A stretch of 64,000 bases of DNA, taken from the NCBI GenBank assembly GCA_963757735.1, contig CAVWST010000021.1, positions 88,373 through 152,372 on the forward strand, in the 5' to 3' direction. The notes beneath the pieces were generated by a model. The model worked only from the letters and a program-made list of their open reading frames with translations. It was not told where the DNA came from and did not search any database. The first letter of the stretch is position 1. Each line of letters opens with the position of its first letter. Shown here in pieces: positions 44,214-51,743 of this stretch. The DNA comes from an uncultured Acidobacteriota bacterium (lineage in GTDB: Bacteria > Acidobacteriota > Vicinamibacteria > Vicinamibacterales > UBA2999). The translations under genes were made by a program, and so were the position numbers.

Positions 44214-46472
44214 TCAGGTTCGGACCGTCAGCAGAAGGTATGCAGCGCCGACGCCAAACAGCAGATTCGGTGCCCAGGCAGCAAGCACGGGTGTCAGGAC
44301 TCCGCCTGAGCCCATCGCCGCGAAGAAGAGAATCGTGATCCAGTACACCAGCGCGATCGCGATGCCAACACCGATGCCTGCCATCGCTCCGCTTCGTCCG
44401 ATCGTGACCGCAAAGGGCACCGCGATGAGCGTCATGACGATCGTGACGAACGGAAAGGACAGTTTTCGGTACAGCGCCACGCGCTGACGAACCACATCGA
44501 AGCCGCTTTGCGCGAGTTGCTCCGTGTAGGCTCTCAGTTGCGTGAAACTCATGAACTCGGGATCGGGCGAATCGGTCGAGAAGTGCTCCGGGGGCTCGAG
44601 CGCACGATTGACCGTCGCGAACTCGGAGTACGACGCCGGCTCTCCGCTCGGATCGAATGTTCTCGTCCAGCCACGACCCACGTTCCAGGTGGCGCCTGTA
44701 TAACGCGCCTCATCGCCGAACGTGCGCTGCGTCATGCGCCGCATCGCACCGTCGAATTCGTAGACCCACAGGCCGCTGAAGCGTTTGGCGACCGGATCGA
44801 AGGATGTGTAGTGGTATATCGAGCCATCGCGCCCTACGACCCACCGGCGATTCAGTACGTCGAACGTTTCTGGTGAGCCGCCGTCGAGGACGTGACGAAT
44901 GACGCGCGCACGATGGTTGGCGGGACCGAGAATTGTCTGTTCAAGCATGAAGAGAAAAGCACCTGCCGCAACGGCGGCGGCCACCATCGGCAACGAGAAG
45001 CGATACAGGCTGATGCCGCATGCCTTCATCACGACGAGTTCGCTGTTCTTGGTCAGGATCGCAACCGTCACGAGTGACGCGAGCAGGACCGAGAGCGGCA
45101 CGATGTAATACAGATACTGGGGAGTCGTGAATACGAAGAACTGACCCAACATTCCCCACGTGCCGGTTCCCCTGAACACCTTCTCCGACAGGTCGATGAA
45201 GGCCGACACATAAAACACACCGATCAGCGCAACACCGGCCAGTGCGAGCAAGCGAAGGTAGGTGAAGGTGACGTAACGATCGAGGATCCCGAAGGGGAGC
45301 GCGGCATGTCCCATTGCCTGCGTGCGCTCCGCAAGCCGTCGGATGAGGGATTGAGCGAACGGGATGGTGATCGGCCGATCTGCGACTCTGTCCCGCCACT
45401 TGAACAGCATTGCGCCGAGAGTTCCCAGAACGATATTGGCGAGCCACGCGGCGAGCCACGACGGCACGAGCTGTCCCCGGACGAGCGACTGCCCGAACCA
45501 GAGAAGCAGGTAATACGCAAAGATCACCGCGACGCCGACGACAAAGCTCGCCAGCTTCGCGTCGCGACGATTGGTCGCGCCGAGTGCCAGCCCGATCAAC
45601 CCGAACACGAGGCAGGCCGCGGGTATCGAGTACCGCTTGTTGAGTTCGAATATCTCGTTGTGTGGCGACTCACCTGCGGTTCGCATACCCGCGATGCGCT
45701 CGCGCAACTCGGGCACCGACATTTCACGCAGACCCTTCGAAATACTCCCCACGCCGAACATGCCAGCCGGATTGATGTTCAGGACGAGGTAGTCGCCTCG
45801 TGCCACCACATATCCGCTCTTCGCATCAGCCGTATGACGCGTCCAGTCCTCGAGGACCAGTTCAACCGTCTTGGCGTTGCGATTGATGACTGCCCGCCCG
45901 TGCCGCGCCAGATAGACGGAGGCACCTTCGCCGGATCGGTTGTCTGCGATGAAGACGCCATCCCAGCCTCCGGTCTGGGGCAACTCCCGCGCGTAGACGA
46001 CGATGTTCGGGAACCCCTCGAAGAAGACCCGCGGTTTGACTTCGTTTTCCGCACTCGACGCAATGATGTTGAAGGTAATTTCGCGGAAGGCCTGGTTCCC
46101 AATCGGAATCAGCACCATGTAGACGTATGCGGTAGCCAGGGCGCTCGTCGTCGCTACAAGAGCAACCGGGCGAAACAACCGATAGAGGCTGACGCCGCAC
46201 GCCTGCATCGCCACGAACTCCCGGTCGGCCGAAAGCCGCCCGAAGGCCACGAGCAGCGCCAAAAGAAGCGACATCGGAATCGTCAGCGCAAGCGCGTACG
46301 GCAGGAGCGTCACGATCAGCCGTCCGACGGTGAGGAGCGGGACCCCCTTCGACACGTATTGCTCGGCGTACCGCATGAGCTCTGGAACGACCAGGAGAAA
46401 CGTGAAGATGGCCAGGCCAAGGCTGAACGGCCAAGCCATCTGACGAAGGATGTAGCGGTCGAGAGTGCGCAT
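44214..46472 (-). CDS. Fused LptF-LptG LPS export ABC permease
   Basis: Two tandem YjgP/Q units, each starting LDRY and containing E(F/L)V(A/V)M(Q/K)ACG(V/I)S; ends AAWAPNLLF. Confidence 0.88.
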   Translation of the reverse strand: MRTLDRYILRQMAWPFSLGLAIFTFLLVVPELMRYAEQYVSKGVPLLTVGRLIVTLLPYALALTIPMSLLLALLVAFGRLSADREFVAMQACGVSLYRLFRPVALVATTSALATAYVYMVLIPIGNQAFREITFNIIASSAENEVKPRVFFEGFPNIVVYARELPQTGGWDGVFIADNRSGEGASVYLARHGRAVINRNAKTVELVLEDWTRHTADAKSGYVVARGDYLVLNINPAGMFGVGSISKGLREMSVPELRERIAGMRTAGESPHNEIFELNKRYSIPAACLVFGLIGLALGATNRRDAKLASFVVGVAVIFAYYLLLWFGQSLVRGQLVPSWLAAWLANIVLGTLGAMLFKWRDRVADRPITIPFAQSLIRRLAERTQAMGHAALPFGILDRYVTFTYLRLLALAGVALIGVFYVSAFIDLSEKVFRGTGTWGMLGQFFVFTTPQYLYYIVPLSVLLASLVTVAILTKNSELVVMKACGISLYRFSLPMVAAAVAAGAFLFMLEQTILGPANHRARVIRHVLDGGSPETFDVLNRRWVVGRDGSIYHYTSFDPVAKRFSGLWVYEFDGAMRRMTQRTFGDEARYTGATWNVGRGWTRTFDPSGEPASYSEFATVNRALEPPEHFSTDSPDPEFMSFTQLRAYTEQLAQSGFDVVRQRVALYRKLSFPFVTIVMTLIAVPFAVTIGRSGAMAGIGVGIAIALVYWITILFFAAMGSGGVLTPVLAAWAPNLLFGVGAAYLLLTVRT

Positions 46473-46556
46473 CAACGGTCGGCGGTTCTTTCAGGCTTAT
46501 CGGCTCGATTATACGGTTTGGCGAAGGATCCGGTCCCTTTCTGAGGGATTTCGTCA

Positions 46557-46584
46557 ACGTCGCATAACAAGCGTTATGTTAACT
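46557..46584 (+). other. dif-like XerC/XerD recombination site
   Basis: ACGTCGCATAA-CAAGCG-TTATGTTAACT, 11-6-11 architecture. The right arm matches the E. coli XerD arm TTATGTTAAAT at 10/11; the left arm shares CGCATAA with GGTGCGCATAA. Intergenic. Confidence 0.8.
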
Positions 46585-46751
46585 ATAGGAGATGCATGCG
46601 GACTCGATTCCGGCTCCCGGTCGGGTCGAGACACCATAATCGCCTCCACCTCTGCCCTCTGGAGGGATTCTCGTGTCCGCCGCAGACGCCCATGGCCCTC
46701 CCGGTCTGCGCCTACTCGAGGGTCTCGGCTGGGGGTTCCGCGAACTGGTTC

Positions 46752-47579
46752 TCAGCGACGCTTGCTGGCTTTCAGTTCTCGAATGATGTTCTCGAGCGCC
46801 TGGATGATTTCGTCCGGCTCGACCTTGCTCTTGCGGAAACTCAGTCGCAGGTCGAAAGCCTTCGTCGGTGGGCGGAACGCGAACACGTAGGACTTCGGCC
46901 GCCCAGCCTTGGCTTTGGCTGTCTCTTCACGCGCCGATTGACGCGTTACGGCGCCGTGGCCAGCCAACTTCTCGACCAGCGCAATCATTTTCTGCGGGTT
47001 GGCCTGTCTAACTACCTGAAGAAGCGTGGACTTAGCGCTAATGTCGGCCAGCCGACAAAGATTTCGGACCTCTTCGGGCATCGCCGTCAAAGACAGCGAC
47101 TCGGTGATCGAGGTTCGGGACTTTCCAAGCTTCCGAGCCAAGTCCTCGTGCGTGTGACCGCACCGGTCGGCCAATTGCTGTAACGCCTCGGCCTCTTCAA
47201 ACGCCGTCAGGTCTTTGCGCTGCAGGTTCTCCACCAGCGCCAGCTCCATAACCTCGGCGTCGTCCACCTCCCGGATGACCACCGGGACTTCGCGCAACCC
47301 GACCTGCACTGCGGCGTGGTATCGCCGTTCGCCAGCGATGATTTGATACCGGTTACCGCGTTGGCGGACGACCAGCGGTTCGATGATCCCTTTCTCGGCG
47401 ACCGAGGCCATCAACTCGGACAAGTCGCCCATGACTTGACGCGGCTGGTCGGGATTGGGATCGAGCAGATCGATGGCCACCATGCGGCCCACGGGCTCCC
47501 CCGCCGAACCCACGAGGGCCTCGACGTAGTGCTCGTCGTGGCGCATTCTCAGCGTTTCAGGCAGTCCTCGCTTCGGCAC
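46752..47579 (-). CDS. parB: ParB/Spo0J-family CTPase, non-canonical paralogue
   Basis: PNPDQPR, GIIEPLVVR, IIAGERRY, ALVENLQRKDL, HTH THEDLARKLGKSRTSITESL; lacks the GHARALL motif. Confidence 0.9.
   Translation of the reverse strand: MPKRGLPETLRMRHDEHYVEALVGSAGEPVGRMVAIDLLDPNPDQPRQVMGDLSELMASVAEKGIIEPLVVRQRGNRYQIIAGERRYHAAVQVGLREVPVVIREVDDAEVMELALVENLQRKDLTAFEEAEALQQLADRCGHTHEDLARKLGKSRTSITESLSLTAMPEEVRNLCRLADISAKSTLLQVVRQANPQKMIALVEKLAGHGAVTRQSAREETAKAKAGRPKSYVFAFRPPTKAFDLRLSFRKSKVEPDEIIQALENIIRELKASKRR
47042..47057. promoter_or_regulatory. 16-bp palindrome inside parB (candidate parS-like site)
   Basis: TGTCGGCCAGCCGACA, one mismatch from the perfect palindrome at 49858. Confidence 0.5.
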
Positions 47580-48336
47580 GCTCGATGACCTCCTCGCAGA
47601 GACTGTAGTAGTCCGTCGCGCCCGTGGACTCCGGCGCGAACGTAAAAATCGATTCTTTATAGGCGGGACTCTCCTCCAGGCGCACGCTCTTACTGATCAC
47701 GGTGCGGAAGACCTTCCCGCCAAACACCTTCTGGATCTGTTCCCGGATGTCCCGCGCCAGGGCGGTCCGCTTGTCGTGCATGGTGATCACGACGCCCAGG
47801 ATACGGAGGCCCGGATTCGGACGCTGTCTGACCTTCTCGATCGTCTCGAGCAAATCGTCCGTTCCTTCGAGCGCGAAGTAGGACGACTGAATCGGAATCA
47901 GGAGGTGCGTCGCGGCCACCAGGGCATTGACCGTCAGCAGCCCGAGAGCCGGCGGACAGTCGATGATGACGTGAGCGTAATCACTCCCCAGCTTATCGAG
48001 CTTGTCCTTCAATCGGAAGTGGGCGTCGAGCTCTCCCACCAATCTCGACTCGAGTTTGGCGAGGCCGATCCTCGCAGGTGCGACGAACAGGTTCTGAAGC
48101 GTCGCCGCCGGCTGGATGATTTGAGCGAGCTCGCACGCCGGATCGGCGATCGCGTCGTACATGCTGCGATCGATCGTGCCGTGGTCCAGGAACGAGATAC
48201 TGCTGTTCGCTTGGGGGTCGAGATCGATGAGGAGCGTCTTCCGTCCCCTCATGGCGAGCGCCGCGGCAAGATTCACGGCGGTGGTGGTCTTCCCCACGCC
48301 GCCTTTCTGATTGGCGATGGCGACGATCATCGGCAT
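47557..48336 (-). CDS. parA: ParA/Soj-family ATPase
   Basis: ANQKGGVGKTTT, IDLDPQAN, IDCPPALG, SVRLEESP. Confidence 0.93.
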   Translation of the reverse strand: MPMIVAIANQKGGVGKTTTAVNLAAALAMRGRKTLLIDLDPQANSSISFLDHGTIDRSMYDAIADPACELAQIIQPAATLQNLFVAPARIGLAKLESRLVGELDAHFRLKDKLDKLGSDYAHVIIDCPPALGLLTVNALVAATHLLIPIQSSYFALEGTDDLLETIEKVRQRPNPGLRILGVVITMHDKRTALARDIREQIQKVFGGKVFRTVISKSVRLEESPAYKESIFTFAPESTGATDYYSLCEEVIERAEARTA

Positions 48337-48455
48337 CCCGCCCCGAGGCAGGATTCATTGGAGCACGCGGTCTCGACACGCCTCCCCGAGAACCAGGTCG
48401 AGGCGATTGTCAGAAAATGGGCCACAGAGCGCAATTTCGGGAAAAGGGTGCGCCC

Positions 48456-48484
48456 ATTGTAGGGAGGGGGCGAAAGCGTGTCAA
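48456..48484 (-). promoter_or_regulatory. Sigma70-type promoter for parAB
   Basis: Minus-strand TTGACA-N17-TACAAT about 120 bp upstream of parA. Confidence 0.7.
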
Positions 48485-48494
48485 CCGACGCGCA

Positions 48495-48510
48495 CGTCGG
48501 CCGGCCGACA
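48495..48510. promoter_or_regulatory. 16-bp palindrome 10 bp upstream of the parAB -35 box (candidate parS-like site)
   Basis: CGTCGGCCGGCCGACA; the duplicate copy at 49856-49875 is a perfect 20-bp palindrome AATGTCGGCCGGCCGACATT. Confidence 0.5.
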
Positions 48511-49874
48511 TTTACATTTCATTTCTTGCCAAGTTACTCAGGATGAAGGACTTTCGAGCCACTTCTGGAGCCGCGCATTATCGGCAGGGTGGAGTCGGCC
48601 GTTGTGGCACTTTCGATGATTCGCCTCTTACATGCAGGATGGCAACGGCGTTCGCCCTTCCTTGGATTTGTTCCCGGTGTCCCGCCAAGGCGGAAGGCTA
48701 CCGGACCCTCTCGATCGCCTCTGGCAAATCGTCTGTTCCTTCGAGCGCGAAGTAGGACGACTGAATCGGAATTAGGAGTGCGTCGCGGCCGGGGTGCGAT
48801 CGATCGTGCCGTGGTCCAGGAACGAGTTACTACTGTTGGCTTAGGGGTCGAGATTGATGCGGCGTGTCTGCACGTCATGGCGAGCGCCGCGGCAAGATTC
48901 ACGGCCGCGGTGGTTCGAGCGCGAAGTAGGACGACTGAATTGGAATGAAGCGACTGAATTGGAATTAGGAAGTGCGCCGCGGCCGCCAGGGCGTTGACCG
49001 TAAGCAACCCGAGGGCCGGCGGACAACCGATGACCCCCGCGAGCGTCGTCACTTCCCCGGCCTTGTCGATCTCGTCCTTCAATCGGAAGTGCGCGTCGAG
49101 CCCTCCCACTTCTGCGACTCGAGTTTGGCGAGCGCGATGGATCGGCGATCGCGTCGTACTGCTGCGATCGATCGTCCCGTGCCGTGGTCCAGGAACGAGA
49201 CGTGGCTACTGGCTTTGGGGTCGAGTCATGGCGAGCGCCGCGGCAAGATTCACGGCCGTGGTTGGTCTTCCATACAACGCAGGAAGCGAAGGCGGGATCG
49301 TCTGTTCCTTCGAGCGCGAGTAGGACGACTGAATCGGAAAATCAAAGAGGTGCGCCGCGGCCACCAGGGCGTTGATCGTCAGCAGCCCGAGAGCTTGCGG
49401 ACAACCGATGACCCGCGAGCGTCGTCACTCCCCGGCCTTGTCGATTTCCTTCAATCGGAAGTGCGCGTCGAGCTCTCCCACCAATCTCGACTCGAGTTTG
49501 GCGAGGTCGATCCTCGCAGGTGCGACCAACAGGTTCTGAAGCGTCGCGGCCGGCTGGATGATGTGAGCGAGCTCCGCAGGCCGGATCGCGTCGTACCATG
49601 CTGCGACCGATCGTGTCGTGGGTCCAGGAACGAGATACGTTATCGGCTTGGGGGTCTTCCCCACGCCGCCTTTCTGATTGGCGATAGCGACGATCATCGG
49701 CATCCCGCTTCGAGGCGGGATTCATCGGAGCACGCGGTCTCGGCACGCCTCCTCGAGAGCCAGGTCAAGGCGGTTGTCAGAAAATGGACTACAGAGCGCA
49801 ATTCCAGAAAGGGTGCGCCCGTTGCGAGGAGGGCGAAAGCGTGTCAGCCGGCGACAATGTCGGCCGGCCGACAT
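48511..49874 (-). pseudogene. Stack of degenerate direct duplicates: DUF151 3' end, three partial parA copies and the parA upstream region
   Basis: 48511-~48655 resembles 49874-50020. ~48703-48915, ~48914-49270 and ~49297-49703 resemble parA 47830-48336 with many indels. 49704-49874 resembles 48337-48511. Confidence 0.8.
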
Positions 49875-50360
49875 TTACATCTTATATTTGCCAAGTTCCT
49901 CAGGATCAAGACTTTCGAGCCACTTCTGGAGCCGCTCATTATCGGCGGGTTCCGTCGTGAAGTCGGCCGTTCTGGCATTTTCGATGACCGCCTCTTCCAC
50001 CAAGATGGGCGACCGCGTTCGTAGCGCCAGGGCGATGGCGTCACTTGGACGAGCATCAACCGCCACAGGTTCTCCGCGAACCGTCAGGTGAATGATTGCG
50101 AAGTAAGTGTTGTCTTTGAGGTCGCTAACCACTACCCGCTCAACGCGCCCTTCGAGGTCCGTGATGATGTTCCGCAGGAGGTCGTGCGTCATCGGCCGCG
50201 GTGTGGAGACATTCTCGATCTGCAGCGCGATGGCATTGGCCTCCGGCACTCCAACCCAAATCGGCAACACCCGCTCGCCCTGCTTGTCCTTGAGGATGAC
50301 GATGGGCGTGCCCGCCATCGGGTCAACCATCAGGCCCTTGATGCTCATTTCAATCAGCAT
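49875..50360 (-). CDS. Bifunctional nuclease family protein (DUF151)
   Basis: LPIWVGVPEANAI, RPMTHDLL, DARPSDAIALALR. Confidence 0.92.
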   Translation of the reverse strand: MLIEMSIKGLMVDPMAGTPIVILKDKQGERVLPIWVGVPEANAIALQIENVSTPRPMTHDLLRNIITDLEGRVERVVVSDLKDNTYFAIIHLTVRGEPVAVDARPSDAIALALRTRSPILVEEAVIENARTADFTTEPADNERLQKWLESLDPEELGKYKM

Positions 50361-51743
50361 GACCGTGTCTCCGTGCTTGGGGCTACCCACGATATGGCCT
50401 CACCTGACAGACTGTGCGGCCCCGATCGAGTGATACGAACGGTGACGGTGCGCCCGATCCAGTCGGCCGCTGCGTCGCTGTGTGAAGTATCGGACGGCAT
50501 TGGCAGACTCACTACCGTATTGCCCGACGTCCGCCCTGACAATTCCTGGCTCCGTCTTCGGCTCGCCGAGTCCACAAGGACATCGAGTTGAGTCCCGAGC
50601 GCCTGCTCATAAAGCCGTGTCTGGATCGAACGCTGCAGTTCCTGGAGCGCCACGATGCGAATGGTCTTCTCCTCCACGCTCACATCGTCGGGCATTCGTT
50701 TCGACGCCAGCGTGTTGGGGCGAGGCGAGGTACTTGAATGAGAACATGCTGTGATACTGGGCCGCTTCGGTTAGCGAGAGCGTGTCGTCGAAGTCCTCTG
50801 CTGTCTCCCCCGGGAAGCCCACGATCACGTCAGTCGACAGCGTGACGCCTGGAATCGACTCCCGAATGCGGGCGATCAGGTCGAGATACTCCTCACGTGT
50901 ATGACGCCGCCGCATGGCTCGAAGGACTCTCGTCGACCCTGATTGAACGGGCAGGTGGAAGTGCTTGCAGACATGCGGCAGATCGCGAACAGCTTCGATC
51001 AGGCGGGTGCCGGTGTGCCGAGGATGAGGGCTGGCAAACCTGATTCGCTCGATTCCTGGAATCGCGTCGACCTCTGAGAGGAGCTGCGCGAAGTCGCATG
51101 CCGGATCGTCTGGGGCCGAGTAGTGATTCACGATTTGTCCGAGGAGCTGCACTTCCCGGCGGCCCGACGCAACCGCCTCTCGGACGTCGGCGAGGATGTC
51201 GGCCTTTGGACGCATGCGTTCGTGGCCCCTGGTATAAGGCACGACACAGAATGCGCAGTGGTCGTTGCACCCCTCGATGATGGTCACGTAGGCGCGCACG
51301 GGATCCGTCCGCCTCACCATCCCTAACGGGAAGCTCACGTCGTCCCAGGGATTGATGTCGACGAGTGGAAACGGCGATCGGGCGACGTCCTCGAGCATGA
51401 TCGGGAGCATCTTCAGGCGCTGGGTGCCCATCACGACGTCGATGACTTTCCCGTTGGTGTTCGAGAGGAGCGATTCTCCTTCCTGCTGTGCGACGCATCC
51501 GGCCACGGCGACAATCGGATTTCGACCGGTCTCCTGCTGCAGCACTCGAAGCTCGCCAAGGCGCGTGTAGAGCTTCTCTTCGGCGTGCTCCCGCACGCTG
51601 CACGTGTTGATGACGATCACGTCCGCGTCCTGATCGTCGGTCGTGGGCTCGTATCCCGCCTGGTCGAGCAACCCCGCCATGCGCTCCGAGTCGTGGACGT
51701 TCATCTGACAGCCGAACGTCTCAATGAGATATTTCCTGGCCAT
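50354..51743 (-). CDS. miaB: tRNA-2-methylthio-N6-dimethylallyladenosine synthase (apparent frameshift near 50730)
   Basis: TFGCQMNVHDSE, NTCSVRE, radical-SAM CNDHCAFC, HLPVQSGS, DVIVGFPGET; the TRAM domain is in ORF 50354-50695. Confidence 0.93.

What the first reader, a model, noticed from the sequence alone, without database searches (positions are those of the whole stretch)
46557..49875. Non-canonical ParAB pair with its own 16-bp palindrome, beside a dif site: candidate terminus-linked partition system
Seen: TGTCGGCC(G/A)GCCGACA occurs inside parB (47042-47057) and 10 bp upstream of the parAB -35 box (48495-48510, with a perfect duplicate at 49858-49873). I saw no other close copy in the window, and no canonical parS. 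The ParB keeps the CTPase motif GERRY and an HTH, but reads KSRTSITESL...SAKSTLLQV where chromosomal ParBs read roughly KSRS.VAN.LRL...GHARALL. A dif-like site lies about 170 bp past the parB stop. Known: parS (TGTTTCACGTGAAACA) is also a 16-bp TGT..ACA palindrome, often in or near parAB. ParB paralogues such as Noc change specificity through this HTH region. Chromosomal parAB normally maps near oriC, next to mnmG/rsmG, none of which are here. Inference: a second ParABS system with a new centromere-like sequence, perhaps positioning the ter/dif region, acting in nucleoid occlusion, or autoregulating.
Basis: partly seen in the sequence, partly recalled or inferred. Interest (0 to 1): 0.82.

Follow-up and report, generated by a model that had tools for sequence, protein, structure and literature searches.

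The report
Second ParAB system marking the terminus
This soil bacterium, like much of its phylum, carries a second chromosome-partition gene pair with its own recognition sequence beside the replication terminus instead of the origin, which may be how these bacteria handle the last-replicated part of their chromosome.

Summary
The palindrome (consensus TGTCGGC-NN-GCCGACA, here called parS2) occurs three times in the 6.03 Mb assembly, all within 2.8 kb of this parAB pair. A canonical rsmG-parA-parB with four canonical parS sites lies on another contig. The adjacent dif-like site is unique in the genome and sits on the GC-skew maximum.

The pair (ParAB2) forms a deep paralogue clade found in 173 of 301 sampled Acidobacteriota. 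In 10 of 10 closed or near-closed chromosomes it lies 0.41-0.50 of the circle from dnaA, usually directly beside dif. The copy inside parB2 is conserved at synonymous positions. All 53 of 53 Vicinamibacteria loci keep at least one site.

In other classes, 5-13 sites cluster around dif across a region of 80 kb to 1.3 Mb. One lineage has lost parA2 together with the ParB2 N-terminal peptide.

Best reading: a ParB-family system specific to the terminus. DNA binding and cellular function are untested.

No paper describing it was found in seven literature searches. The scan met the same module before on other DNA (e1-5111659, e1-1401104, e1-2274263). Those notes read it as the core partition locus, whereas here it is shown to be the second system.

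The parts
46557..46584 (.). dif-like XerC/XerD site: ACGTCGCATAA, a 6-bp spacer, then TTATGTTAACT
   Evidence: Sequence read. The XerD-type arm is unique in the assembly. The site lies on the plateau of maximal cumulative GC skew of contig C21. A dif-like site lies beside parB2 in 48 of 53 class-level loci. In named loci from across the phylum, 37 of 72 have one within 1.5 kb downstream, at a median of 105 bp.
46752..47579 (-). parB2: a 275-aa ParB paralogue with a CTPase-type N domain, an HTH and a ParB-like C-terminal domain
   Evidence: ORF. Pfam ParB_N scores 1.5e-29 and HTH_ParB 4.9e-15. NCBIfam parB_part scores 152.8 bits, above its cut-off; the Noc model scores 157 bits, below its cut-off of 315. 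Identity to the genome's canonical ParB is 36%. It forms a separate clade.
47042..47057 (.). parS2 copy inside parB2, spanning codons C175-R-L-A-D-I180 (TGT CGG CTG GCC GAC A on the coding strand)
   Evidence: Located. Synonymous positions are conserved: this five-codon window has the lowest codon entropy of 117 windows.
47557..48336 (-). parA2: a 259-aa ParA/Soj-type ATPase with the KGGVGKT deviant Walker A motif; its 3' end overlaps the parB2 start by 23 nt
   Evidence: ORF. Pfam AAA_31 scores 1.4e-53. Identity to the canonical ParA on C4 is 43%. Identity to orthologues across the phylum is 57-75%.
48456..48484 (-). sigma-70-like promoter of parA2-parB2 (TTGACA, 17-nt spacer, TACAAT)
   Evidence: Consensus scan matches 11 of 12 positions. 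This is a pattern match only.
48495..48510 (.). parS2 copy 10 bp upstream of the -35 box (CGTCGGCCGGCCGACA)
48511..49857 (-). decayed tandem duplication: a copy of the BFN-gene 3' end (48511-48654), three partial parA2 copies (48704-49656, 73-92% identity with indels), and a copy of the parA2 5' end with a decayed promoter (49649-49857)
   Evidence: blastn mapping. The same structure is present in the closest relative G019. It is absent from 5 other genomes of the genus.
49858..49873 (.). perfect parS2 copy one base after the stop codon of the BFN-domain gene; this is the ancestral position of the upstream site
   Evidence: Five genus members without the duplication have the same arrangement, BFN gene, palindrome, promoter, parA2.
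49875..50390 (-). bifunctional-nuclease-domain (BFN, PF02577) gene, the conserved upstream neighbour of parA2
   Evidence: Pfam 1.4e-41. It lies directly upstream of parA2 in 20 of 20 loci, but is missing from Aminicenantes-labelled loci.

Best explanation
This is a second, complete ParABS-type system (ParA2, ParB2, parS2) dedicated to the replication terminus. It coexists with the ordinary origin-proximal rsmG-parA-parB-parS system.

Shown by computation:
- ParB2 is a deep paralogue that keeps the CTP-binding motifs (GERR, ENLQR), an HTH and a ParB-like C-terminal domain.
- At three of the positions where canonical ParB contacts parS it carries different residues. These are the equivalents of Caulobacter N178, G201 and R204, which read E160, K183 and L186 here.
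- A 16-bp site with invariant arms, TGTCGGC-NN-GCCGACA, travels with the genes across the phylum.
- The module sits beside dif, opposite dnaA.

Inferred:
- ParB2 dimers load at parS2 as CTP-dependent clamps and spread over the dif region, forming a terminus-specific nucleoprotein complex.
- ParA2, bound to the nucleoid, positions that complex the way plasmid ParA systems position their cargo: at mid-nucleoid while there is one copy, and apart once the terminus is duplicated. This would place dif for XerCD/FtsK dimer resolution and help separate sister termini.
- The copy 10 bp from the -35 box probably also autoregulates the operon.
- In lineages with 5-13 sites spread around dif, and in one lineage lacking ParA2, the same ParB2-parS2 pair likely acts more as a terminus-domain organiser.

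My odds: about 0.85 that parS2 is the ParB2 site and the system is terminus-specific; about 0.45 that active positioning or segregation of the terminus is its main job.
For: **1. Site specificity**
- The three copies with up to 1 mismatch in the 6.03 Mb assembly all lie in this locus; the reversed control gives 0.
- In five Vicinamibacterales genomes of few contigs the site occurs once or twice, always in the parAB2 locus.

**2. Two orthogonal systems in one genome**
- The canonical parAB and 4 canonical parS sites lie on C4.
- Canonical parS lies beside canonical parAB near dnaA in 5 of 5 other genomes tested, including an Aminicenantes-labelled chromosome.
- In a quick tree, 34 ParB2 and 16 canonical ParBs are separated by one branch with SH-aLRT 100.

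**3. Terminus location**
- The dif-like site is unique in the genome and lies on the GC-skew maximum.
- ParB2 lies 0.41-0.50 of the circle from dnaA in 10 of 10 chromosomes, while canonical ParB lies 5.5-46 kb from dnaA.

**4. Selection at the DNA level**
- The five palindrome codons keep their modal codon in 79-98% of 52 sequences. Other conserved columns keep theirs in 37-57% (16 Arg), 37-82% (15 Leu), 44-69% (7 Ala) and 54-90% (6 Asp).
- This window has the lowest codon entropy of 117 windows; the random-5 permutation gives p = 0.0018.
- Where the in-gene copy has decayed although the protein still reads CRLA, a copy upstream of parA2 is present. All 53 of 53 loci keep at least one site.
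- In other classes the central codon changes (L, Q, R or S) while the arms stay the same.

**5. Linkage independent of the flanking genes**
- Aminicenantes-labelled loci lack the BFN, miaB and lptFG neighbours yet keep palindrome-parA2-parB2-dif, even at 36-41% GC.
- 41 of 75 named loci hold a site, against 1 of 75 for the control.

**6. Terminus-wide site sets elsewhere (exact 14-bp core; dif positions)**
- G222: 13 of 13 within 2.91-4.20 Mb.
- G256: 8 of 8 within 0.76-1.52 Mb, four on each side of dif.
- G213: 7 of 10.
- G189: 5 of 6 within 81 kb.
- Five genomes without ParB2 hold 0, 1, 0, 0 and 0 cores.

**7. Specificity logic**
- Jalal et al. 2020 (PMC7383237, passages read) report that R173 reads G1 of parS. 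They also report that Noc's R201 reads C6:G-6.
- ParB2 keeps the R173 equivalent (R155, invariant), and parS2 keeps G1.
- ParB2 has K/R at the 201 position, and parS2 has C at position 6 (alignment).

**8. ParA coupling**
- The genus that lacks parA2 also lacks the first 31 residues of ParB2.
Against: - There is no binding, localisation or genetic data; everything rests on sequence.
- In this genome all three sites lie within the operon. One is promoter-proximal and two are related by duplication, so autoregulation alone could account for this genome.
- 128 of 301 sampled Acidobacteriota gave no ParB2 hit at E <= 1e-45, including whole families at 0 of 22 and 0 of 8. The system is therefore dispensable in parts of the phylum.
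- 34 of 75 named loci have no site within about 4 kb.
- In G126 the genome-wide count is no higher than the reversed control (2 against 5; 2 against 2).
- G213 has three outlying cores.
- One lineage works without ParA2, so ParA-driven movement cannot be the universal function.
- The Aminicenantes-labelled chromosome places the module only 0.41 of the circle from dnaA.
- The intervals used for clustering statistics were chosen after seeing the data. Related genomes are not independent.
- The window's genome is a 75%-complete draft.
- The tree is the quick version; the careful search did not finish.
Confidence: 0.6

Rival explanations
1. Autoregulated relic. The pair descends from a plasmid or Xer-integrating element that landed at dif. 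The palindrome is only the operator through which ParB2 represses its own promoter, with no role in chromosome handling.
For: One copy ends 10 bp upstream of a near-consensus -35 box. In 19 named loci a copy lies within 400 bp upstream of parA2. This genome has sites only inside the operon. dif is a known landing site for elements, and G222 shows two dif-like sites 24 kb apart right next to parB2. From memory, not from any call: the gonococcal genetic island at dif carries parA/parB homologues.
Against: The module is inherited vertically with conserved synteny across classes, and the ParB2 tree broadly follows taxonomy. Only one site with the unique XerD-type arm (TTATGTTAA) flanks it here; a second, weaker dif-like site lies on another contig, C33. 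The most conserved copy lies inside the coding region, 1.4 kb from the promoter. Other lineages carry 5-13 sites spread over 80 kb to 1.3 Mb around dif, which an operator role cannot explain. The CTPase motifs are invariant, and ParA2 is 57-75% identical across the phylum.
Confidence: 0.1
2. Division-site control from the terminus. A ParB2 complex at dif, with ParA2 acting like MipZ or MinD, tells the divisome where or when to assemble. This would be Noc-like or MipZ-like logic run from the terminus, not DNA transport.
For: The terminus sits at mid-cell at division in many bacteria (abstract of PMC4177673, seen in the listing). ParB paralogues and ParA-like ATPases are known division regulators (Noc: PMC8429893, abstract in the listing; MipZ is recalled). 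The best NCBIfam hit of ParB2 by E-value is the Noc model (4.6e-46). ParA2 has a weak MipZ Pfam hit (2e-11).
Against: The Noc model score is 157 bits against a cut-off of 315. ParB2 has R, S, A, K at the four positions where Noc has Q, K, K, R. The site distribution is the inverse of what I recall for Noc sites, which avoid the terminus. The MipZ hit is far weaker than the generic ParA hit. No link to FtsZ was tested.
Confidence: 0.15
3. Terminus-domain organiser without active transport. ParB2 bound at parS2 sites condenses or insulates the dif region, or loads or unloads SMC-type complexes there. This would be functionally like MatP/matS. ParA2 would be an accessory that some lineages have dropped.
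For: In one genus parA2 and the ParB2 N-terminal peptide are absent, while 8-13 sites flank dif on both sides over 0.8-1.3 Mb. This resembles my recollection of matS sites in the E. coli Ter macrodomain. Canonical ParB acts as an adaptor for Smc (abstract of PMC8494293, listing).
Against: In most lineages ParA2 is present, translationally coupled to parB2, and more conserved than ParB2 (57-75% against 39-54% in other classes). Such conservation is hard to square with an accessory role. Vicinamibacterales genomes have only 1-3 sites, all within 3 kb, too few to organise a large domain unless ParB2 spreads or slides far.
Confidence: 0.15

Closest known systems
Chromosomal ParABS (Soj/Spo0J-parS of Bacillus and Thermus; ParAB-parS of Caulobacter)
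   Same: The operon is a ParA ATPase followed by ParB. ParB has the GERR and ENLQR CTPase motifs, an HTH and a C-terminal domain. The site is a 16-bp TGT...ACA palindrome, with one copy inside parB itself. The best solved-structure matches are Thermus Spo0J 1vz0 (4e-36) and Caulobacter ParB 6t1f (6e-35).
   Different: The inner bases of the site differ (CGGCN against TTCAC). It lies at the terminus beside dif, not near oriC beside rsmG. The residues equivalent to the parS contacts N178, G201 and R204 are replaced by E, K and L. Jalal et al. describe G201 as absolutely conserved in extant ParB orthologues. It coexists with a true canonical system in the same chromosome.
Noc-NBS nucleoid occlusion system of Bacillota
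   Same: It is a ParB paralogue that acquired a new 16-bp palindrome through changes in the same HTH region. A basic residue sits at position 201 and a C at site position 6. Sites occur in multiple copies with a chromosome-region bias in some lineages.
   Different: It has its own ParA partner in most lineages. Its sites are concentrated at the terminus, whereas Noc sites are (from recall) excluded from it. The four Noc specificity residues Q, K, K, R read R, S, A, K here. The NCBIfam Noc model scores below its cut-off.
MatP-matS Ter macrodomain system of enterobacteria and vibrios
   Same: This is a functional resemblance only. A short palindrome is confined to a region of 80 kb to 1.3 Mb centred on dif.
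   Different: The protein family is unrelated: ParB2 hits only ParB-type Pfam families. Most lineages add a ParA motor. Vicinamibacterales have only 1-3 sites. The properties of MatP and matS are recalled, not tested here.
Secondary-replicon ParABS, such as Vibrio cholerae ParAB2-parS2 of chromosome II
   Same: It is a second ParABS set with its own site sequence working in the same cell as the primary one (abstracts of PMC3688505 and PMC10287910, listing).
   Different: Those systems serve a separate replicon and sit near its origin. Here both systems lie on one chromosome at opposite poles.
KorB and other autoregulating plasmid ParBs
   Same: The ParB site lies next to the promoter of its own operon. 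There is a weak Pfam KorB hit (25.3 bits). KorB is a CTP-dependent clamp that represses transcription (abstract of PMC11790492, listing).
   Different: This system is chromosomal, vertically inherited and linked to the terminus. Its most conserved copy is inside a gene, and other lineages carry distant copies.

Membership tests
ParB/Spo0J superfamily (ParB-CTPase fold with HTH) | ParB_N domain with the GERRxR and ENLQR nucleotide-binding motifs | tested here: met
   Pfam ParB_N 1.5e-29. G83, E84, R85, R86, E117, N118 and R121 are invariant in 16 ParB2 sequences.
ParB/Spo0J superfamily (ParB-CTPase fold with HTH) | HTH DNA-binding domain following the N domain | tested here: met
   Pfam HTH_ParB 4.9e-15. 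It aligns through the HTH of 1vz0 and 6t1f.
ParB/Spo0J superfamily (ParB-CTPase fold with HTH) | CTP binding and hydrolysis, and clamp closure at the cognate site | not testable with these tools
   Only the motifs can be read. This needs biochemistry.
Orthologue of the origin-proximal chromosomal ParB (canonical ParABS) | Recognises canonical parS; the parS-contacting residues R173, N178, G201 and R204 (Caulobacter numbering) are present | tested here: not met
   Only R173 is kept. N178, G201 and R204 read E, K and L (with for the residue roles). There is no canonical parS in the window.
Orthologue of the origin-proximal chromosomal ParB (canonical ParABS) | Located near oriC, typically beside rsmG/mnmG | tested here: not met
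   The pair lies at the GC-skew maximum beside dif, and 0.41-0.50 of the circle from dnaA in 10 of 10 chromosomes. The canonical set lies elsewhere.
Orthologue of the origin-proximal chromosomal ParB (canonical ParABS) | Groups with canonical ParBs in a tree | tested here: not met
   One branch with SH-aLRT 100 separates 34 ParB2 from 16 canonical ParBs, which include 5 from other phyla. This is the quick tree.
ParABS-type partition system (functional class) | Adjacent ParA with a deviant Walker A motif, co-oriented with and coupled to parB | tested here: met
   The motif is KGGVGKT and the genes overlap by 23 nt. parA2 lies directly upstream in 74 of 75 named loci. That query was biased towards ParB2 forms that have the N-terminal motif.
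ParABS-type partition system (functional class) | Cognate palindromic site in or next to the operon, conserved with the genes | tested here: met
   53 of 53 class-level loci, control 0 of 53. 41 of 75 loci across the phylum, control 1 of 75. Synonymous-site test.
ParABS-type partition system (functional class) | ParB N-terminal peptide that contacts and activates ParA | tested here: inconclusive
   A conserved (K/R)RGLP...MRHD.HYVE motif is present (G5, L6, P7 and H17 invariant). It is missing exactly where parA2 is missing. Contact itself has not been shown.
Noc (nucleoid occlusion protein) | NCBIfam TIGR04285 score above its cut-off | tested here: not met
   157.2 bits against a cut-off of 315.
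Noc (nucleoid occlusion protein) | Specificity residues Q173, K179, K184 and R201 | tested here: not met
   ParB2 has R155, S161, A166 and K183 at the aligned positions.
Noc (nucleoid occlusion protein) | N-terminal membrane-targeting amphipathic helix | not tested
   Not examined.
Mobile-element ParAB (plasmid or Xer-integrated island) | Patchy distribution, variable context, element borders such as a duplicated dif | tested here: not met
   ParB2 was found in 36 of 40 relatives and 173 of 301 genomes of the phylum. Synteny is conserved. Only one site with the XerD-type arm flanks the module; the only other dif-like site lies on contig C33.
MatP/matS | MatP-family protein | tested here: not met
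   Only ParB-type Pfam families match ParB2. The resemblance lies in site distribution only.

The most novel reading that the evidence does not exclude
ParB2-parS2 is the missing terminus-handling machine of a whole phylum. On this reading it is a ParB-family counterpart of MatP/matS that, in its ancestral form, has its own ParA motor. That would make it the first partition system dedicated to a replication terminus. It would hold dif at mid-cell, pull sister termini apart after replication ends, and couple this to XerCD/FtsK dimer resolution and division. Some lineages would then have turned it into a motor-less, multi-site terminus-domain organiser.
Probability: 0.4. Interest if true: 0.92.

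Novelty: new variant of a known kind. Interest (0 to 1): 0.85.

Why it matters
From recall, outside enterobacteria and vibrios (MatP) and a few single cases, how bacteria position and separate the replication terminus is largely unknown. ParABS systems are textbook origin machines. Here a phylum of abundant soil bacteria keeps two orthogonal ParABS sets on one chromosome, one at each pole of the replication map.

If ParB2 binds parS2, several things follow:
- A direct, testable handle on terminus biology in Acidobacteriota.
- A natural second case, after Noc, of ParB re-targeting through the same few HTH positions.
- A series of lineages running from a motor-coupled system with 1-3 sites to a motor-less one with 8-13 sites.
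- A new ParB/parS pair that could serve for orthogonal DNA-locus labelling.

Tried and rejected
- **Chance palindrome:** rejected on genome-wide uniqueness, controls and conservation.
- **Transcription terminator or RNA hairpin of the BFN gene:** the scan lists the 48496-48509 stem as terminator-like on the plus strand only. However, the arm sequence, not merely the ability to pair, is invariant across the phylum. It occurs within genes, upstream and downstream, and hundreds of kb away in other lineages. Rejected as the main role.
- **Partition system of a secondary replicon:** rejected, because ParB2 and dnaA lie on the same single contig in 10 genomes.
- **Assembly artefact for the decayed parA copies:** rejected, because the closest relative's independent assembly has them too.
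- **Complex prediction** (two ParA2, ATP, and ParB2 residues 1-40) returned 'no answer' with score 0.10. It is not used either way.
- **The listing of cluster members** on 10 distant family members gave no organism names.
A 4-sequence alignment worked, but its patterns favour ParB2 forms that have the N-terminal motif.
- **The protein atlas** gave only a lead that the nearest clusters are acidobacterial.
- **The careful tree search** did not finish in the time allowed; the quick tree is reported.
- **Seven literature searches** and passages of PMC12704722 and PMC2099444 turned up no description of a terminus-linked ParABS in Acidobacteriota. Supplements were not available and could hold relevant tables, for example the parAB survey of PMC12704722.

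Full report
**What is in the window**

On the minus strand, parA2 (47557-48336, 259 aa) overlaps parB2 (46752-47579, 275 aa) by 23 nt.
- ParB2 carries the ParB_N and HTH_ParB domains. ParA2 is a ParA/Soj-type ATPase.
- The palindrome lies at 47042-47057 inside parB2, at 48495-48510, and at 49858-49873. The 48495 copy begins with C, not T.
- A near-consensus promoter, TTGACA-17-TACAAT, lies 10 bp from the 48495 copy.
- The dif-like site ACGTCGCATAA-CAAGCG-TTATGTTAACT occupies 46557-46584, 167 bp beyond the parB2 stop codon.
- The interval 48511-49857 is a decayed tandem duplication. It holds a copy of the 3' end of the upstream BFN-domain gene, three partial parA2 copies (73-92% identical, with indels), and a copy of the parA2 5' end. 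The closest relative, G019, has the same structure. Five other genomes of the genus run straight from the BFN gene through the palindrome and promoter into parA2. The duplication is therefore real and recent, and two of the three palindromes are copies of one another.

**More than chance**

The assembly (6,033,970 bases, 41 contigs, 75% complete) holds 1 exact copy and 3 copies with up to 1 mismatch, all within these 2.8 kb. A fourth copy, with 2 mismatches, lies elsewhere. The reversed pattern gives 0.

**This is the second system**

- Four canonical parS sites (up to 1 mismatch) all lie on contig C4, two of them just upstream of an rsmG-parA-parB operon. That ParB reads KDRSSVANFMRLL...GHARALL.
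- ParA2 is 43% identical to that canonical ParA, and ParB2 is 36% identical to that ParB.
- In a quick maximum-likelihood tree, 34 ParB2 sequences and 16 canonical ParBs (11 acidobacterial, 5 from other phyla) fall on either side of one branch with SH-aLRT 100. The careful search did not finish.

**It is at the terminus**

- The XerD-type arm of the dif-like site occurs once in the assembly.
- Cumulative G-C along contig C21 rises to a plateau at 125-140 kb and then falls. Its maximum is 4.9 kb from dif. Mean skew is +0.009 to the left of dif and -0.025 to the right.
- In nine single-contig genomes and one chromosome labelled Aminicenantes, ParB2 lies 0.41-0.50 of the circle from dnaA. The individual values are 0.479, 0.493, 0.470, 0.473, 0.497, 0.476, 0.417, 0.470, 0.471 and 0.408. 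The canonical ParB lies 5.5-46 kb from dnaA.
- Canonical parS sites lie beside the canonical genes in 5 of 5 genomes checked.

**Distribution**

- One named close homologue is labelled Vicinamibacterales.
- A ParB2-type match (65-97% identity) was found in 36 of 40 relatives: 21 of 24 genomes of the genus and 15 of 16 other families of the order. The four misses are 54-86% complete.
- Across the phylum, 173 of 301 genomes have a near-full-length match at E <= 1e-45. Some families have none (0 of 22, 0 of 8, 0 of 5).
- Among 1.84 billion representative proteins, only 958 reach E <= 1e-30.
- A scan of species-representative genomes returned 75 full-length loci. Their labels are Thermoanaerobaculia, Vicinamibacteria, Blastocatellia, Terriglobia/Acidiferrales, Holophagales, Aminicenantes or simply Acidobacteriota. 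Four carry other labels. The three of these placed in the tree nest inside acidobacterial ParB2 clades. Beyond the 75, only partial canonical hits appear.
- That scan's patterns favour ParB2 forms with the N-terminal motif.
- I did not test other phyla directly.

**The site travels with the genes**

- All 53 of 53 class-level loci hold at least one site with up to 1 mismatch in the 14 specified bases. The reversed control appears in 0 of 53. A dif-like site appears in 48 of 53.
- For the codon test, 3 short matches, 9 duplicates and 2 rows with stop codons were dropped. That left 60 sequences, of which the 52 from this class were analysed.
- In those 52 sequences the palindrome codons keep their modal codon as follows: TGT 79%, CGG 88%, CTG 94%, GCC 81%, GAC 98%.
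- The other conserved columns keep theirs in 37-57% (16 Arg), 37-82% (15 Leu), 44-69% (7 Ala) and 54-90% (6 Asp).
- The five-codon window has the lowest codon entropy of 117 windows (0.57 against a mean of 1.23), and the random-5 permutation gives p = 0.0018.
- A subclade whose protein still reads CRLA has let these codons drift (TGC, CGC, GCG). It carries a copy upstream of parA2 instead.
- In other classes the middle codon changes (L, Q, R, S) while the arms stay fixed, giving the consensus TGTCGGC-NN-GCCGACA.

**Linkage beyond synteny**

- recN-miaB-BFN-parA2-parB2-dif-lptFG is widely conserved. Of 20 loci, parA2, parB2 and BFN are found in 20, miaB in 19, and dif-like and lptFG in 16 each.
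- Where DNA has been inserted, dif stays next to parB2 rather than next to lptFG.
- Aminicenantes-labelled loci lack all these neighbours yet keep palindrome-parA2-parB2-dif, even at 36-41% GC.
- In the 75 named loci, 41 hold a site, against 1 for the control. There are 50 sites in all: 22 in parB2, 19 within 400 bp upstream of parA2, 4 just downstream, and 5 elsewhere.
- A dif-like site follows parB2 within 1.5 kb in 37 of 72 loci, at a median of 105 bp.

**Site sets that span the terminus**

- In Vicinamibacterales genomes the site occurs once or twice, always in the locus.
- Elsewhere the exact 14-bp core clusters around dif:
  - G189: 5 of 6 within 81 kb around parB2.
  - G222: 13 of 13 within 2.91-4.20 Mb, with dif at 3.64-3.66 Mb and the dnaA antipode at 3.52 Mb.
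  - G256: 8 of 8 within 0.76-1.52 Mb, four on each side of dif at 1.11 Mb.
  - G213: 7 of 10 within 0.74-1.87 Mb.
- The reversed controls in these four genomes give 0, 1, 4 and 4.
- The nominal probabilities (3e-8, 3e-8, 5e-7, 2e-3) use intervals chosen after seeing the data.
- Five acidobacterial genomes without ParB2 hold 0, 1, 0, 0 and 0 cores. Their base composition was not checked.
- In G126 the counts are at control level apart from the in-gene copy.

**A lineage without the motor**

In the genus of G213, G222 and G256, the locus reads miaB-BFN-parB2-dif. The only ParA hit at E <= 1e-25 is the canonical one near dnaA. ParB2 there starts at the equivalent of residue 32, so it lacks the conserved (K/R)RGLP...MRHD.HYVE peptide. 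This co-loss is my main evidence that the peptide serves ParA2.

**How specificity may have changed**

- Jalal et al. 2020 (PMC7383237; passages read) report several points. R173 of Caulobacter ParB contacts G1 of parS. N178 and R204 are conserved DNA contacts. G201 is conserved in ParB orthologues. Noc's R201 reads C6:G-6.
- Aligned to 6t1f, ParB2 keeps R173 (R155) but has E160, K183 and L186 at positions 178, 201 and 204. R155, E160 and L186 are invariant in 16 ParB2 sequences.
- parS2 keeps G1 (TGT), has C at position 6, and differs at positions 3-5. The fit between these protein and DNA changes is an inference.

**Mechanism and rivals**

- The best-supported reading is a ParABS-type system specific to the terminus. 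ParB2 clamps load at parS2 beside dif. ParA2 positions or separates the complex. The promoter-proximal copy adds autoregulation.
- In some lineages the system has shifted towards a multi-site terminus-domain organiser that lacks ParA.
- Three rivals cannot be excluded without experiments: pure autoregulation of a relic, division-site control, and motor-less domain organisation or SMC handling. The distant terminus sites and the conserved in-gene copy argue against the first.

**Prior knowledge**

- Seven literature searches and passages of two papers gave no description of this system. Supplements were closed.
- The scan's own earlier notes describe the same module on other DNA.
  - e1-5111659 describes a parAB-palindrome-dif unit in an Aminicenantes chromosome.
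  - e1-1401104 describes a 'core partition locus with unusual centromere'.
  - e1-2274263 describes parAB beside dif.
- My searches show that an Aminicenantes-labelled chromosome also has a canonical ParB with canonical parS 46 kb from dnaA. The module is therefore the second system there, not the core one.

**Unpublished genomes**

The counts include G008. The tallies and listings include G062 and G183. These three genomes are flagged unpublished. No claim depends on them alone.

Noticed in passing
window 48511-49857: A decayed tandem duplication: the BFN 3' end plus three partial parA2 copies with indels. It is shared with the closest relative but not with 5 other genus members. This is a recent duplication-and-decay event right at the terminus.
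   Followed up: yes
G000 contig C9:134285-135415 (L003:1276-2409): A 377-aa protein with the ParB2-type N-terminal motif (GLP..MR.D.HYVE) and a ParB_N domain in which GERR reads GSKR. It has no HTH and an unassigned C-terminal half. It is 38% identical to ParB2 over 118 aa. It was found in 10 of 24 genus genomes and in 0 of 16 other families. It could be a second client of ParA2.
   Followed up: partly
G000 contig C4:10056-13196 (L004), with canonical parS at C4:9371 and 10254: A second canonical-type parA-parB pair that appears broken by frameshifts. It has two canonical parS sites nearby and lies about 50 kb from the intact rsmG-parAB. It could be a decayed duplicate, an assembly chimera or an indel-error region.
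   Followed up: no
G000 contig C33:137659: A second, weaker dif-like sequence (TCGCATAA-TGCCGC-TTATGGTTAC) near the end of a contig.
   Followed up: no
G222:C1:3640936 and 3664961: Two dif-like sites 24 kb apart next to parB2. The one abutting parB2 is degenerate (3 mismatches). This is the pattern expected of an element integrated at dif by Xer recombination.
   Followed up: no
window 44214-46475: LptF and LptG are encoded as one fused 753-aa ORF; both NCBIfam equivalog models hit it. The fused form is matched across the phylum.
   Followed up: no
window 50354-51743: miaB appears split into a 378-aa ORF and an overlapping 113-aa ORF carrying the C-terminal part. The match in the closest relative is also in pieces. 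This could be a real frameshift or indel errors in these assemblies.
   Followed up: no
window 49875-50390 and related loci: A BFN-domain (PF02577) gene sits directly upstream of parA2 in 20 of 20 loci across several classes, but not in Aminicenantes-labelled loci. A functional link to the terminus module is possible but untested.
   Followed up: partly
G000 contigs C4:14327, C4:18244, C21:95432, C35:63713: Four further exact matches to the 14-bp core GTCGGC-NN-GCCGAC lie outside the locus, against 2 for the reversed control. One lies 40 kb from parAB2 on the same contig.
   Followed up: no
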